A stretch of DNA of 39,592 nucleotides from a virus, in the IMG/VR virus record IMGVR_UViG_3300014913_000003, positions 1 to 39,592 of that record. One strand, written 5' to 3'. The notes below the pieces were generated by a model, which worked only from the letters and a program-made list of their open reading frames with translations, made no database searches and was not told where the DNA came from. Below are positions 28,334 to 31,329 of the stretch, in pieces (position 1 is the first letter of the stretch; each line of letters opens with the position of its first letter). Position numbers and translations under genes: made by a program.

Positions 28334-28807
28334 ATGTCACAGAAAAAACCGCGCATCCAAAAGTACGCAGAGGCAGTAGCAGTCGGCAATACCAGAACAA
28401 GGGCAAAAGAGCTCGCTGGGTATTCGCCTAAAACGAACGTCACCGACATAGAACAGAATCCCGTGTTCAAGAGCCATCAGAAAGCCATTCTCAATAAGTT
28501 TGAGGCAGGCGGATTGACCGACGACCTAGTCGTAAAGCGGCTTAAGGGCCTCATAAATAAGCGTGAGAAGCGTTTATCTTTCGGGAAGGTGGTAGAGGTA
28601 GACAAAGTGGACGCAGGCGCAGTGTCAAAGGGATTGGACCTACTATTTAAGGTACGAGGAGATTACGCACCAGTCGAAGTCAAACAAACGAATCCAATGG
28701 ATGATATGGACATTGTAGGCCTAATGACCGCACTACAAGAGGCGGGAGGAATGGGTGAAGTGAGTCTAGACCTATTGCCAGAACTAACGGACAATCCCCA
28801 AGAGTAG
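28334..28807 (+). CDS. terS: Terminase small subunit (Terminase_2-like, 157 aa)
   Basis: KYAEAVAVGNTRTRAKELAGYSPKTNVTDIEQNPVFKSHQKAI matches the HTH pattern F..eY...GN...AA..AGYS.k.a......l..np.v. Confidence 0.6.
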   Translation: MSQKKPRIQKYAEAVAVGNTRTRAKELAGYSPKTNVTDIEQNPVFKSHQKAILNKFEAGGLTDDLVVKRLKGLINKREKRLSFGKVVEVDKVDAGAVSKGLDLLFKVRGDYAPVEVKQTNPMDDMDIVGLMTALQEAGGMGEVSLDLLPELTDNPQE

Positions 28808-29004
28808 TACAATAAATCACGTCAAGAGCTGTGAATGTCTTTTATAGTGGGGGTATTGGCGTTTGGGCGCTACTTAACACAATGTGTATTGTTGTAAGTA
28901 AAACTCTTTCTAGCCCCCCCCCCTACTCCCCTATGCACCCATGGGGGTACTGGTTTGTATATATAATAGTCCCCAGGCCCACATCCCCGATTTCCCAGAA
29001 AACG

Positions 29005-29038
29005 ATGGTCAGTTTTGTGTAAGGGATTTGCGTATCAT
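29005..29038 (+). repeat. 34-nt box, copy 1: ATGGTCAGTTTTGTGTAAGGGATTTGCGTATCAT
   Basis: 29/34 identical to 29280-29313. An upstream companion segment GGTATTGGCGTTTGGGC (about 28852) resembles GGATTGGTGTATTTTTGGGC (about 29179). Confidence 0.8.
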
Positions 29039-29279
29039 ACAATAAACGTGGTGAATAAAGTCAAGTGTGGTGGATGTGTGGGTGTACATTGGTTAAACGT
29101 CTGTAAAGGTGTTCGTGCGGGAGATATGGAGTTTGTTGGGTTTGTGAGTATATTTGGATAAATACCTTAGATTTGGCGGGATTGGTGTATTTTTGGGCCC
29201 CCTGGGCTTAATAATTGTGTTCGTGGATGTTGGGTTGTGGAGTACGTTTCAGCTAATTTTTATTTTTTTCTGGAAAAGC

Positions 29280-29313
29280 ATGGTCAGTTTTATCTTAGGG
29301 TTTTTCGTATCAT
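29280..29313 (+). repeat. 34-nt box, copy 2: ATGGTCAGTTTTATCTTAGGGTTTTTCGTATCAT
   Basis: See copy 1; ends 40 nt upstream of the HNH-AP2 ATG. Confidence 0.8.
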
Positions 29314-29353
29314 TAGATTTGACTTATTTGTTGAGGTGTGCTAGGATGGTGGC

Positions 29354-29851
29354 ATGAAGGAGTATAGAGACATTTCCGGATATGAGGGGCTGTATAGTGT
29401 ATCTAGTGATGGGGAGGTGTTAAGTCTCCGTCGCGGGAAGCATCTTAGTCAGTGTTGCGAGACAAAGGGGTATATGTCTGTAATGCTTTGCAATAATGGG
29501 GTCAGTAAGCGAGTTCTGGTGCATCGCCTTGTTTATTCTGAGTTTGTTGGGGACATTTCTGGTCAAATAGACCATAAGGATGGCAACAGGAAGAATAACA
29601 AGCTAGAGAATTTAAGAGATGTTACGAGAGCGCAGGATCAATGGAATACGGTGGTTCAGAAAAACAAGACATGCTCCGTGAAGGGGGTGTATCGTGCTGG
29701 GGCAAGTTGGTATTCTGAGTTTAGGTGTAATGGAGAGCGGATAAGAAGTAAATGCTTTCGGCAGGAGGCGCAGGCGATTCGTTGGTATGAAATAGAGATT
29801 GTTAGGCATAGGGGGCGGCAAGCCTGTCCTCGAATAACTGGGAGCTGCTAA
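29354..29851 (+). mobile_element. Free-standing homing endonuclease: NUMOD4 + HNH_3 + AP2-like DNA-binding domain (165 aa)
   Basis: ISGYEGLYSVSSDGEVLSL (NUMOD4), IDHKDGNRKNNKLENLRDVTRAQDQWN (HNH_3), VKGVYRAGASWYSEFRCNGERIRSKCFRQEAQAIRWYE (AP2-like). Confidence 0.75.
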
Positions 29852-30003
29852 CCTCATGCAGCCGCTAAAGGGATGATAACCCTTGTGAGAATGACTCCGA
29901 AACTACGGAATTTAATCAGCCGTTAAACGGAGAGGGGTGAGAACCCCCAAGTTATGCCTTCGGGCTCGTGGCCTCTTCGGGGGCTACTAAATGTTCTTTG
30001 AGA
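29852..30003 (+). ncRNA. Structured RNA region (six short hairpins, two with UUCG tetraloops); function unknown
   Basis: Hairpins at 29868-29884, 29896-29909, 29920-29930, 29934-29947, 29956-29965 (GCC-UUCG-GGC) and 29971-29984 (GCCUC-UUCG-GGGGC); no ORF. Confidence 0.45.
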
Positions 30004-30180
30004 GATTGTATCGAGTGGTGGAATAGGTAGACACTACATACTGGGAAGAGCACCTGTGTACATTCACATAAAGACCCTCCCAAGGGAAATCTGGTCGCTC
30101 ATGCAAGGTGACTATACGAGTATTTAAGTGCGAAACTCACTATAATCCAAAACTCGTCAAATCCTTGCCTCGATACAATC
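30004..30180 (+). ncRNA. tRNA-Leu-like RNA with expansions (tRNA mimic, intron-bearing tRNA or pseudogene)
   Basis: A 12-bp closing helix, 30004-30015 / 30169-30180. CGAGTGGTGGAATAGGTAGACAC closely matches the E. coli tRNA-Leu 5' acceptor/D-arm. Stem 30103-30108 / 30163-30168 would enclose a canonical TTCAAAT T-loop if 30110-30156 were removed. Confidence 0.5.
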
Positions 30181-30193
30181 CTTGAGAGGATAA

Positions 30194-30266
30194 AGCGGAG
30201 TAGAGTATTGGTAACTCGCTGGACTCATAATCCGGAATAATGTCAGTTCAAATCTGTCCTTCGCAA
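30194..30266 (+). tRNA. tRNA-Met (anticodon CAT), with some initiator-like features
   Basis: Hand-folded. D arm GAGT-ATTGGTA-ACTC; anticodon arm CTGGA-CTCATAA-TCCGG; T arm GTCAG-TTCAAAT-CTGTC (one U-U mismatch). The acceptor has 6 bp plus an A-A mismatch at 1:72. The variable loop is 6 nt. Confidence 0.6.
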
Positions 30267-30290
30267 TCAAATTCTTAAAGACTATGCACA

Positions 30291-30464
30291 ATGGGGACAA
30301 TTACCAAGGGGACAATGCTCGCATACGTTGTATCTGTCTTTGTGGTGAAAATGCTAAACATTGTTATTGAGAGGCCGTGGACGAGCACGTTAGAAATATT
30401 TACTATTTTGTTCGGTGCTGGCGTTACTCTGGCAATCCTTATTGTTGGGTACAATGCTCCATAG
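30291..30464 (+). CDS. Small membrane protein with 2 predicted TM helices (57 aa)
   Basis: Hand-translated: MLAYVVSVFVVKMLNIVI and IFTILFGAGVTLAILIVG. Confidence 0.4.
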   Translation: MGTITKGTMLAYVVSVFVVKMLNIVIERPWTSTLEIFTILFGAGVTLAILIVGYNAP

Positions 30465-30519
30465 GGGGGGGGATATAACTAAGTCGGAAATTTAAGCATA
30501 TTATATAATTCAATCGCAA

Positions 30520-30969
30520 ATGAAGATTCTAGAAACGCATCCGGAGATAAAATCAAGAGAGGTCTTGTTGGGAGATTCTCAAAGACTCTTACAGTACGCC
30601 AAGGAAATGCACAAGCTCTGTTTTGAGCCGATTGGTATGTACCCGGGGGGTGAGGCGGTGGCACATGTGCAGGTCGCAGGAAAAGACCCGCTACGCTTCT
30701 TTGTGAAAAAAGATGGGACTATCTATATAAACCCGGTAATTACGAGCCAGAAACAGAAATATAAACACCGGGAGGGGTGTCTGTCGTTTGCGAATGAGTC
30801 TCCGGTTGAAGTAGAGAGATATAACTTGATAGAGGTCGAATTTGTTTTGGCGCATATAACGGCGAAACAAATAGTGACAGACGGTGGGCAGAAGGGGCGC
30901 TTCTCGGGGAAAGACGCTGCAATCTTTCAGCACGAGATAGAGCACTTTGATTTGGATTTAATTTATTAA
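30520..30969 (+). CDS. def: Peptide deformylase (149 aa)
   Basis: The three PDF motifs: GGEAVAHVQV (G.G.AA.Q-like), EGCLSF (EGCLS) and QHEIEHF (HE..H). Confidence 0.85.
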   Translation: MKILETHPEIKSREVLLGDSQRLLQYAKEMHKLCFEPIGMYPGGEAVAHVQVAGKDPLRFFVKKDGTIYINPVITSQKQKYKHREGCLSFANESPVEVERYNLIEVEFVLAHITAKQIVTDGGQKGRFSGKDAAIFQHEIEHFDLDLIY

Positions 30970-30970
30970 A

Positions 30971-31087
30971 ATGAAAAGGAAGCAAGCGGTGTCGGTACGG
31001 AGGCCCTTTACGGTGGCTATGTGGCAGGGGATATTGAAACAGGCGGTTGCGAGAGCCGAGAAGGAGCTAAATAATCCGAAGAAATAA
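30971..31087 (+). CDS. Basic mini-ORF (38 aa)
   Basis: Hand-translated; TAATG overlap with the next gene. Confidence 0.3.
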   Translation: MKRKQAVSVRRPFTVAMWQGILKQAVARAEKELNNPKK

Positions 31088-31329
31088 TGAATAAAATACA
31101 ACCGACGACAGAGCGGATAGAGATGTGCAAATTCTATGTCAAAAGGGCGAATTGGCATTATGGGGTTGGAGTTCTTGCGATATTTGCAATTGGAGTATTG
31201 TTCGCGCAGGAGGTTCATTTTGGATGGCTGGTGCCACTTGGAGGGATTCTTACTTGGAATATCTTCTTCGCTGTGACATACTCAGCAATGGCAGAGGAAT
31301 GGGAGAGGACGCTTCCAAAAATTAAATAA
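31087..31329 (+). CDS. Small membrane protein (80 aa)
   Basis: Two hydrophobic segments (VGVLAIFAIGVLFA and LVPLGGILTWNIFFAVTY). Confidence 0.5.
   Translation: MNKIQPTTERIEMCKFYVKRANWHYGVGVLAIFAIGVLFAQEVHFGWLVPLGGILTWNIFFAVTYSAMAEEWERTLPKIK

What the first reader, a model, noticed from the sequence alone, without database searches (positions are those of the whole stretch)
29997..30190. tRNA-Leu-like RNA with an interrupted T-loop, an enlarged anticodon loop and a 12-bp closing helix
Seen directly:
- GATTGTATCGAG (30004-30015) is the exact reverse complement of CTCGATACAATC (30169-30180).
- The 5' side, CGAGTGGTGGAATAGGTAGACAC, is almost identical to the acceptor/D-arm of E. coli tRNA-Leu (CGAGGTGGTGGAATTGGTAGACAC).
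- GCAAGG (30103-30108) pairs with CCTTGC (30163-30168). Deleting 30110-30156 (47 nt) would restore a textbook T-arm, CAAGG-TTCAAAT-CCTTG.
- The anticodon-like arm (30035-30040 / 30055-30060) closes a 14-nt loop, CTGGGAAGAGCACC, instead of 7 nt.
- About 42 nt sit where the variable arm should be.
- TTGAGA flanks the element on both sides (29998-30003 and 30182-30187).

Bacterial tRNA introns are known only as group I introns of more than 200 nt in the anticodon loop. A short T-loop insertion would therefore be unusual.

Alternatives:
- a tRNA-mimic ncRNA, for example a Y-RNA-like YrlA type with a long terminal stem plus a tRNA-like domain;
- a decoy for tRNA-targeting host defences;
- a decayed or insertion-disrupted tRNA gene, with TIR-like ends and a possible 6-bp target duplication.
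Basis: partly seen in the sequence, partly recalled or inferred. Interest (0 to 1): 0.75.

Follow-up and report, generated by a model that had tools for sequence, protein, structure and literature searches.

The report
Phage tRNA-Leu-derived RNA, extra T-loop arm
This is a real, conserved phage gene for a tRNA-shaped RNA that cannot decode codons; it belongs to a large, apparently undescribed family that evolved from leucine tRNA, lost the anticodon arm and gained a conserved extra arm inside the T loop, and its function is still unknown.

Summary
The element (30004-30180, + strand) is not a one-off and not a decayed tRNA. It is one of at least 140 distinct relatives in uncultivated phages and in prophages of several very different bacterial phyla.

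All relatives share this layout:
- a fully covarying closing helix of 6-26 bp (most often 12 bp);
- an almost invariant tRNA-Leu U8/D arm (UGGCGGAAUAGGUAGACGC);
- a hypervariable middle of 4-233 nt with no anticodon arm;
- a covarying 6-bp T stem;
- a T loop split by a conserved arm, UGACUAUA-CGAG-UA...CUCG-(U/G)CAAAU.

An insert-less sister family has the T loop UGCAAAU, a 7-bp acceptor and mostly A73. It includes unannotated copies in cultured Listeria phages.

ARAGORN (with intron and tmRNA modes) and Rfam 15 call neither group. YrlA, tmRNA, a spliced tRNA, a pseudogene and a transposon-like element all fail explicit tests.

My best reading is a processed, non-decoding mimic of the tRNA-Leu upper half. 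It would engage a universal tRNA-binding host factor, and the T-loop arm would be a permanent added domain. The partner is inferred, not shown.

Novelty: a new variant of a known kind (phage tRNA-like RNAs such as T4 species 1 RNA).

The parts
30004..30015 (+). 5' strand of the closing (acceptor-like) helix, GAUUGUAUCGAG.
   Evidence: It is the exact reverse complement of 30169-30180. The equivalent helix is present and fully covarying in the family: all 8 innermost pairs show changes on both sides. Helix length is 6-26 bp, most often 12 bp.
30016..30034 (+). U8-G9 followed by a class-II (tRNA-Leu type) D arm: GUG / GAAUAGGUAGA / CAC.
   Evidence: It is identical to phage tRNA-Leu(UAA) genes. 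The family consensus is UGGCGGAAUAGGUAGACGC, with most positions 87-100% conserved. The leave-one-out HMM for this block hits 30012-30034 with E = 8e-6.
30035..30102 (+). Hypervariable middle that replaces the anticodon and variable arms. It ends in C-A-U, where the U corresponds to U48.
Evidence: Across the family this region is 4-233 nt long, with no conserved sequence and no canonical anticodon arm. The final U is 94% conserved.
30103..30108 (+). 5' strand of the T stem, GCAAGG (6 bp).
   Evidence: It pairs with 30163-30168. In the family, 5 of the 6 pairs show changes on both sides and pairing is 100%.
30109..30122 (+). Conserved 5' half of the split T loop plus the base of the inserted arm: UGACUAUA-CGAG-UA.
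   Evidence: TGACTATACGAG is found in 123 of 140 relatives, and the rest differ by single bases. It was also recovered independently using only the 3' module as bait. The leave-one-out HMM hit has E = 6e-8.
30123..30152 (+). Variable interior of the inserted T-loop arm.
   Evidence: The inserted arm beyond CGAG (interior plus the closing CUCG) is 25-147 nt in the family. It is far shorter in members outside that parsed set, e.g. 11 nt in L082 and 10 nt in L158. No conserved motif was found, and there is no complementarity to the middle region.
30153..30162 (+). 3' strand of the inserted arm (CUCG) followed by the 3' half of the T loop (UCAAAU).
   Evidence: CTCG is 97-99% conserved. The next base is U in 78% and G in 22%. 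CAAAT is 98-100% conserved. The leave-one-out HMM hit has E = 2e-5.
30163..30168 (+). 3' strand of the T stem, CCUUGC.
30169..30180 (+). 3' strand of the closing helix, CUCGAUACAAUC. There is no free discriminator base and no encoded CCA.
   Evidence: The first unpaired base after the helix is C (30181). In the insert-bearing family this position is not conserved.
30194..30266 (+). Context only: a true tRNA-Met(CAT) gene 13 nt downstream, probably on the same transcript.
   Evidence: ARAGORN and Rfam tRNA at 50.1 bits. The terminator-like scan of 28800-31200 lists no site between the element and this tRNA.

Best explanation
Window 30004-30180 (+) encodes a structured RNA of about 177 nt that is tRNA-shaped but cannot decode. 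It belongs to a family that descended from class-II tRNA-Leu.

The family kept the tRNA 'upper half and elbow': the acceptor-like helix, U8, the Leu-type D arm, U48 and the T stem. It lost the anticodon and variable arms, which are now a hypervariable and dispensable filler. It gained a permanent extra arm inside the T loop.

Proposed mechanism:
1. The RNA is transcribed as part of a longer phage transcript at the boundary between early and late genes. It has no terminator of its own.
2. It is released or trimmed like the neighbouring tRNA.
3. It folds into a tRNA-like L.
4. It acts in trans as a mimic of the tRNA-Leu core. It binds a universally conserved host factor that reads that core rather than the anticodon. 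Leucyl-tRNA synthetase is the most specific candidate. Other readers of the elbow or T arm, such as RNase P, are alternatives.
5. The closed, extended helix and the altered T loop keep it out of translation.

What is shown: the family, the fold, non-decoding status, rejection of the rival classes, and genomic placement. What is inferred: trans action and the identity of the partner.
For: Family and fold:
- 140 distinct insert-bearing relatives were parsed from viral-contig scans and 25 genome-contig loci. The genome records are titled as Saccharibacteria/Patescibacteria, Antrihabitans and Arthrobacter, Salipiger, Henriciella and Pseudolabrys, Acidobacteria, Brocadia, Syntrophales, Chitinophaga and others.
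- Covariation is strong.
- Leave-one-out HMMs place the window in the family.

Non-decoding:
- The middle is 4-233 nt with no anticodon arm.
- ARAGORN, with or without intron and tmRNA modes, of 140 at default thresholds.

The core is what matters:
- Members exist with the middle or the insert interior reduced to almost nothing. Examples are L305, L274 and L272 (49-60 nt, insert-less) and L158 and L082 (tiny insert).
- The variable parts carry no shared motif, no mutual pairing, and no complementarity to their own contig.

Leu-specific core:
- The conserved positions are U8, A14, A15/U48, G18, G19, C56 and A58.
- These are the tertiary-core elements that bacterial LeuRS uses. The anticodon arm is dispensable for leucylation (PMC2377443).
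- The insert-less sister family has a 7-bp acceptor. Its first unpaired 3' base is A in 32 of 44 members with a 6-7 bp helix.

A universal partner, or none:
- The same core occurs in phages of very different phyla.
- No neighbouring protein family is conserved.
- The scanned window ORFs include no Ro60, RtcB, reverse transcriptase or ligase.

Embedded in a longer transcript:
- Terminator-like sites occur within 100 nt downstream in 9 of 137 members, the same as upstream.
- The downstream gene is co-oriented in 60 of 71 cases.
- In tRNA arrays the element occupies a tRNA-like slot, with 5-14 nt spacers.
Against: - There is no expression, processing or binding data for any insert-bearing member.
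- LeuRS needs A73 and the G18-U55 contact (PMC2377443). The window RNA has its position 73 paired inside a 12-bp helix, and position 55 is either G or displaced by the insert. It is therefore at best a binder, not a substrate.
- Some members lack the D arm (L087, L141, L234) or have A19 without a compensating change at position 56. The elbow contact is therefore not obligatory in every lineage.
- The strongly conserved internal loop UGACUAUA/UCAAAU has no explanation in this model.
- Placement upstream of late genes would fit a cis role equally well.
Confidence: 0.5

Rival explanations
1. A cis-acting processing or stability module ('tRNA punctuation') in the leader of the late/packaging operon. 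The tRNA-like fold would be cut by RNase P, or the long closing helix by RNase III. This would separate or stabilise the flanking mRNA segments, and the excised RNA itself would have no function.
For: - The element typically lies at the junction of early and late genes. Neighbours include TerL, HNH, NinG/Rap, RusA and methyltransferases.
- In the window it lies between RusA and HNH on one side and peptide deformylase and TerL on the other.
- In Listeria phage vB_LmoS_188 the sister element lies just after the late-activator gene, inside the rliG leader.
- It has no terminator of its own, and the downstream gene is co-oriented in 85% of cases.
- RNase P ignores the anticodon arm (established knowledge), which would explain the hypervariable middle.
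Against: - Any tRNA-like shape would serve this purpose. That would not explain near-invariance of the Leu-specific D arm and of UGACUAUACGAG across phyla.
- Helices extended beyond 7 bp hinder RNase P rather than help it (established knowledge).
- No alternative pairing with flanking sequence is seen.
- Helices of 7-13 bp are too short for RNase III.
Confidence: 0.2
2. A decoy or inhibitor of a tRNA-targeting anti-phage defence. The RNA would present a class-II tRNA core to a nuclease or modifying toxin, but would offer an uncleavable, fast-evolving surrogate in place of the target arms.
For: - Hypervariability is confined to the parts that known defence nucleases cut, namely the anticodon and variable loops. 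For example, Septu cleaves the variable loop of class-II tRNA-Tyr, and phages answer with extra tRNA copies (PMC13096335).
- The element is phage-borne, has no dedicated protein partner, and has a broad host range.
- A homing endonuclease lies next to the tRNA region, as in T-even phages.
Against: - There is no direct evidence.
- Minimal members have no middle region at all.
- The T-loop arm, not the middle, is the conserved novelty.
- No co-occurrence with any defence or anti-defence gene was seen.
Confidence: 0.12
3. A tRNA gene interrupted by novel small introns, one in the T loop and one in the anticodon region, which are spliced out to give a working tRNA. The T-loop insert could alternatively be a small self-cleaving or self-splicing ribozyme.
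For: - Removing 30110-30156 restores a textbook T arm.
- Insert-less relatives exist.
- The insert has conserved ends and a variable interior, which is intron-like.
- Another phage tRNA-Leu(UAA) in L020 carries a 49-nt insert in its anticodon loop.
Against: - No family member has a recognisable anticodon stem-loop, even when introns are allowed.
- The boundaries cannot form a bulge-helix-bulge motif (inspection of the sequence).
- 47 nt is far below group I or group II intron size, and Rfam reports no intron or ribozyme at E <= 10.
- Insert-less relatives themselves lack anticodon arms, so splicing would not create a decoder.
- Members that have lost the D arm keep the insert.
Confidence: 0.06
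4. A decaying tRNA-Leu pseudogene, a transposon-like insertion, or a DNA-level site such as an attP or recombinase site, rather than a functional RNA.
For: - TTGAGA flanks the window copy.
- In L156 the last 28 nt of the element are repeated about 0.8 kb away.
- A few loci carry only 3' fragments, for example L211 and L222.
- One sub-lineage has a third copy of the helix arm downstream.
Against: - Compensatory changes keep two helices paired in essentially all of the at least 140 relatives, while the loop sequences stay invariant. That is selection on an RNA fold.
- The terminal helix sequence is the least conserved part, which is the opposite of transposon terminal inverted repeats.
- Flanking direct repeats do not exceed the control.
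Confidence: 0.04

Closest known systems
Bacteriophage T4 species 1 RNA (rnaC), with species 2 RNA (rnaD)
   Same: It is a phage-encoded stable RNA lying in a tRNA gene cluster next to a homing endonuclease gene. It has an acceptor-like helix and a T arm enclosing about 100 nt of non-tRNA sequence. It has no anticodon function, and its role is still unknown (PMC3014915).
   Different: T4 rnaC has a canonical GGUUCGAAUCC T arm with no insert and no Leu-type D arm. It shares no sequence similarity with this family. This is an analogy, not shown homology.
Insert-less sister family found here (T loop UGCAAAU), including unannotated copies in Listeria phages vB_LmoS_188, LP-101, B054 and P70-like phages
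   Same: It has the same U8/D arm, the same 6-bp T stem (GCAAGG or GTAAGG), the same CAAAU half-loop and a hypervariable middle. It also sits at the early/late junction. It is clearly homologous.
   Different: It has no T-loop arm. The acceptor helix is mostly 7 bp, and the first unpaired 3' base is A in 73% of members with a 6-7 bp helix. It therefore looks able to be processed, and perhaps charged. The window RNA instead has a 12-bp closed helix and a split T loop.
Bacterial and phage Y RNA of the YrlA type
   Same: It is a tRNA-mimicking ncRNA with D-like and T-like arms plus a long terminal stem, and it also occurs in phages (PMC4201824).
   Different: YrlA is permuted: the order is T arm, acceptor-like hairpin, D arm, with the ends at the anticodon position. 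It carries a GNCGAA Ro-binding motif and is encoded within about 4 kb of Ro60. None of these apply here.
tmRNA tRNA-like domain
   Same: It has an acceptor helix and a T arm that bracket a large non-tRNA insert.
   Different: tmRNA lacks a true D stem, has Ala identity (G3:U70), and carries a tag reading frame and pseudoknots. ARAGORN in tmRNA mode finds nothing in 226 family sequences.
Minimal tRNA-Leu substrates of bacterial LeuRS
   Same: Bacterial LeuRS recognises A73 plus the D/T tertiary core. The anticodon arm is dispensable for aminoacylation (PMC2377443; Larkin et al. 2002, cited there, could not be read here). The family preserves exactly that core.
   Different: Those are engineered molecules with a free NCCA end and a normal T loop. 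The window RNA has neither.
P1/P7 C4 and P4 CI antisense RNAs
   Same: They are small phage RNAs that are processed by RNase P from longer transcripts and have variable loops (my own knowledge, not checked in a paper here).
   Different: They act by base-pairing with targets in the same phage. Here, complementarity to the element's own contig equals that of shuffled controls (10.0 versus 10.03 nt), and Rfam C4 does not match.

Membership tests
Insert-bearing tRNA-Leu-derived phage RNA family (defined here) | A closing helix directly abutting U8-G9 and a Leu-type D arm (consensus UGGCGGAAUAGGUAGACGC). | tested here: met
   30004-30034. The leave-one-out HMM gives E = 8e-6. In 120 of 140 relatives the helix found by pairing alone ends exactly at TGGCG/TGGTG.
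Insert-bearing tRNA-Leu-derived phage RNA family (defined here) | A 6-bp T stem enclosing UGACUAUA-CGAG...CUCG-(U/G)CAAAU. | tested here: met
   30103-30168. The leave-one-out HMMs give E = 6e-8 and E = 2e-5. The sequence matches the consensus exactly.
Insert-bearing tRNA-Leu-derived phage RNA family (defined here) | A non-conserved middle without an anticodon arm, ending in U48. | tested here: met
   30035-30102. The region matches no relative and ends in CAU.
Canonical tRNA (Rfam RF00005 / ARAGORN) | An anticodon stem of 5 bp with a 7-nt loop, a 7-nt T loop, and detection by tRNA models. | tested here: not met
   There is no ARAGORN or Rfam call for the element, even at E <= 10, although the neighbouring tRNA-Met is found. 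The loop is 14 nt and the T loop is split.
Canonical tRNA (Rfam RF00005 / ARAGORN) | A 7-bp acceptor stem with a free discriminator base and a 3' end that is, or can become, CCA. | tested here: not met
   The helix is 12 bp, position 73 is paired, and CCA is not encoded. The family helix is most often 12 bp.
tRNA gene with an intron (bacterial group I in the anticodon loop, or archaeal bulge-helix-bulge) | A group I core of more than 200 nt or a bulge-helix-bulge motif at the junctions, with exons that reconstitute a full cloverleaf. | tested here: not met
   ARAGORN in intron mode of 140. There is no Rfam intron hit. The junction sequences cannot form a 3-4-3 bulge-helix-bulge (inspection). 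In silico deletion of the insert gives only a sub-threshold, mismatched model.
YrlA / bacterial Y RNA | Permuted order (T arm, acceptor-like hairpin, D arm) with the 5' and 3' ends in a Ro-binding stem that carries GNCGAA. | tested here: not met
   The order here is acceptor, D, middle, T, acceptor. The definition is taken from PMC4201824. No Rfam Y RNA or YrlA hit was found.
YrlA / bacterial Y RNA | Encoded near a Ro60 (TROVE) gene. | tested here: not met
   Pfam or PHROGs scans of 38 larger window ORFs found no TROVE domain. The smaller ORFs were not scanned. No such protein appears among neighbours in 73 loci.
tmRNA | A tRNA-Ala-like domain plus a tag-peptide reading frame, detected by ARAGORN. 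| tested here: not met
   ARAGORN -m finds nothing in the window or in the 226 family sequences.
Listeria sRNA rliG (RF02415) | A match to the Rfam model. | tested here: not met
   There is no hit in the window. In phage vB_LmoS_188 the sister element lies just 3' of a partial rliG match and is not part of the model. A118 has full rliG without the element.
Substrate of leucyl-tRNA synthetase (functional tRNA-Leu identity) | An A73 discriminator with a free acceptor end, plus an intact U8-A14, G18-U55, G19-C56 core (PMC2377443). | tested here: inconclusive
   The core nucleotides U8, A14, G18, G19, C56 and A58 are present. Position 73 is C and is paired, and position 55 is G or displaced by the insert. 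Binding and charging cannot be tested with these tools.

The most novel reading that the evidence does not exclude
The tRNA-Leu-derived core together with the invariant UGACUAUA-CGAG / CUCG-UCAAAU T-loop arm defines a new functional class of phage RNA. One possibility is a trans-acting tRNA-core mimic that captures or reprograms a universal host tRNA-handling enzyme or a tRNA-targeting defence effector. Another is a new small catalytic or intron-like module that lives in T loops. Neither would have a counterpart among described bacterial or phage RNAs.
Probability: 0.3. Interest if true: 0.85.

Novelty: new variant of a known kind. Interest (0 to 1): 0.68.

Why it matters
Phage tRNA-like RNAs of unknown function have been known since T4 species 1 and 2 RNAs, and none has been explained. 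This family gives that question a handle for comparative work:
- hundreds of copies exist;
- the conserved core is sharply defined at about 75 nt;
- natural minimal variants show which parts are dispensable;
- sister copies occur in cultured Listeria phages, and insert-bearing copies occur in prophages of cultured Salipiger, Arthrobacter and Antrihabitans strains.

The same core is maintained in phages of hosts as different as Saccharibacteria and Arthrobacter. This points to a universal host target in the tRNA-handling machinery. It could reveal a new way for viruses to manipulate translation, tRNA processing or tRNA-directed immunity.

A helix inserted into a T loop, with invariant junction nucleotides, is also a structural novelty for tRNA-like folds.

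Neither ARAGORN nor Rfam 15 detects either family, and none of the Listeria phage records examined annotates the sister element as an RNA. These genes are therefore likely to be missed or mis-called in phage genome annotation.

Tried and rejected
- **Known relatives in cultured phages.** BLAST of the window region, of a gut/oral sub-lineage member, and of eight concatenated T-stem-plus-core variants against 50,697 phage records gave no match.
- **Rfam.** An E <= 10 search of the window region and an E <= 5 search of four other members gave nothing relevant.
- **Pairing between the D loop (AUAG) and the T-insert (CUAU).** Natural variants (L206, L229, L240, L258, and the A19 members) are not compensatory, so I rejected it.
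- **Antisense regulator of its own phage, in the style of C4 or CI.** The longest complementarity equals that of shuffles, so I rejected it.
- **Kissing or pseudoknot between the middle and the insert interior.** The value equals that of shuffles, and no enriched motif was found.
- **Conserved partner gene.** Clustering of 380 neighbouring ORFs and PHROGs scans of 108 nearest neighbours found none.
- **Target-site duplication.** Not a family trait.
- **Riboswitch-like alternative pairing of the 3' strand with downstream sequence.** Equals shuffles.
- **A terminator of its own.** Not enriched.
- **Obligatory membership of tRNA arrays.** Only about 12 of 73 loci have a tRNA within 500 nt.
- **Kink-turn, sarcin-ricin, 11-nt receptor, hammerhead and bulge-helix-bulge readings of the conserved loop.** None fits by inspection. 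This was inspection only, not a test.
- **Literature.** Four keyword searches for a description of the family and one exact-sequence search found no description of it. The supplements of the 10,006-candidate phage RNA survey (PMC10690425) are not held.
Full report
**1. The observation**

The region was read directly and every coordinate was re-derived by script.
- The 12-bp closing helix is 30004-30015 paired with 30169-30180.
- The T stem is GCAAGG/CCTTGC, at 30103-30108 and 30163-30168.
- The 47-nt T-loop segment is 30110-30156.
- The 14-nt loop is closed by TACATA/TGTGTA.
- A 42-nt stretch lies before the T stem.
- TTGAGA sits on both flanks.

The 5' block GAGTGGTGGAATAGGTAGACAC is shared letter for letter with about 50 ordinary phage tRNA-Leu(UAA) genes.

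ARAGORN and Rfam 15 find only one tRNA in the window, tRNA-Met(CAT) at 30194-30266, 13 nt downstream. They find nothing at the element, even at E <= 10.

The element folds into the proposed helices with z = -3.4 against shuffles.

A perfect 12-bp inverted repeat within 300 nt is expected about 0.7 times in a window of this size (my arithmetic). The case for reality therefore rests on comparative evidence.

**2. It is one member of a large family**

An exact scan of IMG/VR with the D-arm 22-mer returned mostly normal tRNA-Leu genes. It also returned five odd elements built like the window's (L008, L011, L026/L039, L043). One of them, L011, has the same T-loop insert with a compensatory G-C to A-U change in its stem.

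Three further scans enlarged the set:
- the 3' module alone as bait;
- a gapped pattern in 185,579 species genomes.

After parsing, these gave 140 distinct insert-bearing sequences.

The shared architecture is:
- a closing helix of 6-26 bp (most often 12 bp, second most often 8 bp);
- UGGCGGAAUAGGUAGACGC, with most positions 87-100% identical;
- a middle of 4-233 nt (median 80);
- U48, conserved in 94%;
- a 6-bp T stem;
- UGACUAUACGAG, exact in 123 of 140 members, followed by UA;
- the rest of the inserted arm (a variable interior plus the closing CUCG), 25-147 nt in the parsed set;
- a 3' half-loop that starts with U (78%) or G, followed by CAAAU;
- the 3' strand of the T stem and the 3' strand of the closing helix.

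The 3'-bait scan did not specify the 5' half of the insert. About 70 of its 82 distinct hits nevertheless carried it, so the two halves really do belong together.

I trimmed 71 members to equal length to count covariation.
- 99.1% of cells pair in register, against 38-47% when the register is slid.
- 15 of 21 pairs show changes on both sides, in 339 cells.
- Every position of the closing helix uses all four Watson-Crick pair types.
- Caveat: my parser required pairing, so the percentage paired is partly built in. The double changes are not built in. Nor is the fact that the helix found by pairing alone ends exactly at the D-arm motif in 120 of 140 cases.

Block HMMs built without the window sequence each hit the window once, in the right order. 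Nothing outside 30004-30180 is conserved.

**3. Where the family lives**

The 25 genome hits come from records titled as follows:
- Saccharibacteria, Patescibacteria and Parcubacteria;
- Antrihabitans and Arthrobacter;
- Salipiger, Henriciella, Pseudolabrys and Stellaceae;
- Acidobacteria, Brocadia, Syntrophales and Chitinophaga.

A crude ORF listing of four of these genome loci shows phage-like genes, including a probable large terminase, next to the Arthrobacter and Antrihabitans copies; this rests on my reading of the ORFs, which were not scanned against any family library. The Salipiger and Henriciella loci show ordinary chromosomal genes, so a prophage origin is not shown for them.

The window itself looks like a podophage-type genome. 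It carries TerL, a portal protein, an SU10-type adaptor (a weak hit), an LPD38 giant protein, RusA, an HNH endonuclease and a peptide deformylase.

There is no conserved neighbouring protein family. The recurring neighbours are TerL, HNH endonucleases, NinG/Rap, RusA and methyltransferases, which mark the early/late gene junction.

Only about 12 of 73 loci have a tRNA within 500 nt. Where tRNAs are adjacent, the element occupies a tRNA-like slot with 5-14 nt spacers.

The downstream gene is co-oriented in 60 of 71 cases. Terminator-like sites are no more frequent downstream than upstream (9 versus 9 of 137). The RNA is therefore probably part of a longer transcript.

**4. A sister family without the insert**

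A scan with AGGTGCAAATCCTKRC (stopped at the cap) gave 86 parsed relatives.
- They have the same U8/D arm and the same 6-bp T stem.
- The T loop is UGCAAAU.
- The middle is 16-251 nt.
- The helix is most often 7 bp.
- The first unpaired 3' base is A in 32 of 44 members with a 6-7 bp helix.

Natural minimal versions of 49-60 nt have no anticodon or variable region at all (L305, L274, L272).

One sub-lineage is present but unannotated in 84 INPHARED records. These are mostly Listeria phages: vB_LmoS_188, LP-101, B054 and P70-like phages.

In vB_LmoS_188 the element lies just downstream of the late-activator (sigma-like) gene. It directly follows a partial match to the Listeria sRNA rliG. A118 has full-length rliG but no tRNA-like element.

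In phage phi10403S the rliG region is transcribed during lysogeny and is dispensable for virion production (PMC7397523). Whether phi10403S carries the tRNA-like element was not checked.

The sister family has a bearing on where the insert sits. All three independent insert-less forms recovered by a bait that was neutral about the T loop have G at position 55. This favours reading the window T loop as U54-G55 | insert | C56-A57-A58-A59-U60.

**5. What it is not**

- **Not a decoding tRNA and not an intron-containing tRNA.** No member has an anticodon arm. ARAGORN with intron or tmRNA modes of 140 insert-bearing sequences and 1 of 86 insert-less sequences at default thresholds. After in silico removal of the 47 nt, only a sub-threshold 'tRNA-Pro(GGG) with a 40-nt intron' and a mismatched anticodon stem appears. 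The junctions cannot form a bulge-helix-bulge motif. No group I or group II intron or known ribozyme model matches.
- **Not YrlA.** The topology is different, there is no Ro60 gene, and there is no GNCGAA motif.
- **Not tmRNA**.
- **Not a pseudogene or a transposon-like element.** Selection keeps the helices paired while the helix sequence drifts, and target-site duplications are not a family trait.
- **Not an antisense RNA against its own phage**.
- **Not a riboswitch-like switch**.

**6. How it most likely works**

The functional part is the conserved core of about 75 nt. Both variable regions can shrink to almost nothing in natural members. They carry no shared motif and no detectable pairing partner.

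That core is the upper half and elbow of tRNA-Leu. The conserved nucleotides U8, A14, A15/U48, G18, G19, C56 and A58 are the tertiary-core elements that bacterial LeuRS reads. The anticodon arm is dispensable for leucylation (PMC2377443).

The same core persists in phages of unrelated phyla, with no dedicated phage protein nearby. The partner is therefore probably a universal host component of tRNA handling.

I commit to a trans-acting, non-decoding tRNA-Leu-core mimic that is released from a longer transcript. LeuRS is the most specific candidate partner. Elbow or T-arm readers such as RNase P are alternatives.

In the window-type sub-family, the closed 12-bp helix and the split T loop should prevent charging and ribosome entry. 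It would then act as a binder or decoy rather than as a substrate.

Approximate confidence:
- a real, structured RNA family: about 0.9;
- non-decoding: about 0.9;
- trans-acting mimic: about 0.5;
- LeuRS specifically: about 0.2.

The invariant junction UGACUAUA/UCAAAU is not explained by any model I could test. It is the most interesting open point.

The rivals are a cis processing or stability module, an anti-defence decoy, a novel intron or ribozyme, and a DNA-level element. Each is scored separately.

**7. Comparison with known systems**

The closest characterised analogue is T4 species 1 RNA (rnaC). It has a tRNA-like acceptor helix and a T arm around a non-tRNA interior. It lies in the tRNA cluster beside the segB homing endonuclease, and its function is unknown. 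There is no sequence relationship to this family.

**8. Has it been described before?**

The family is absent from Rfam 15. It did not turn up in the open literature I could search, either by keyword or by exact sequence. A description in work I cannot access is still possible.

**9. Verdict**

The element is a new variant of a known kind (phage tRNA-like RNA). It is well suited to experiment, because related copies exist in cultured hosts and phages.

Noticed in passing
L020 14134-14290 (IMGVR_UViG_3300028833_000063): An otherwise normal phage tRNA-Leu(UAA) has its anticodon loop CUU|AAAA split by a 49-nt hairpin-closed insert (ACGTAGG...CCTACGACC). That is far too short for the group I intron known at this site. 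L004 has a long insert at the same position, possibly a group I intron.
   Followed up: no
L384 2501-2637 (Listeria phage vB_LmoS_188, NC_028871 37990-38126); 84 INPHARED records in all: The insert-less sister RNA is present in cultured Listeria phages and a few Enterococcus phages. None of the 25 listed records annotates it as an RNA, and in B054 the match falls under the feature 'gp75'. In vB_LmoS_188 it directly follows the 5' half of the Rfam rliG match, downstream of the late-activator gene. A118 has full rliG without the element.
   Followed up: partly
L385 2724-2776 (Listeria phage P70): An Rfam mcrA RNA motif (58.8 bits, above the gathering score) lies 85 nt downstream of the tRNA-like element and near an HNH endonuclease gene.
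   Followed up: no
window 30194-30266 and 30520-30969: The tRNA-Met(CAT) has an A1 x A72 mismatch and two of the three G-C pairs typical of initiator anticodon stems. A peptide deformylase gene follows about 250 nt later. Together they could be a translation-initiation pair of phage auxiliary genes.
   Followed up: no
window 29852-29997: Between the HNH endonuclease gene (29354-29851) and the element lie several G+C-rich hairpins, two of them closed by UUCG loops. The region has no homolog in any fetched locus, and its fold is only weakly better than shuffles (z = -1.8).
   Followed up: partly
L148, L143, L234, L156: Several contigs carry more than one copy. L148 has two identical 225-nt copies about 2.7 kb apart. 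L143 has two diverged copies about 390 nt apart. L234 has an insert-less copy and an insert-bearing copy in tandem, with the same closing helix. In L156 the last 28 nt of the element are repeated about 0.8 kb away, which resembles an attachment site.
   Followed up: no
L179, L198, L245, L063, L088, L148 (3' flanks): A sub-lineage with the 12-bp helix TGKNYATAYAAG occurs in genome records titled Saccharibacteria, Arthrobacter/Antrihabitans and Acidobacteria. Several members carry a third, downstream copy of the 5' arm, for example CTTATATGTTCA-ACA-TGGCTATGTAAG. This could form an alternative hairpin or act as a protein-binding palindrome. It is not a feature of the family as a whole.
   Followed up: partly
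L087, L141, L234, L222: In some members the Leu-type D arm is replaced by an unrelated hairpin. L222 is a deletion derivative that fuses the D loop to the T-loop insert. The D arm is therefore not indispensable in every lineage.
   Followed up: no
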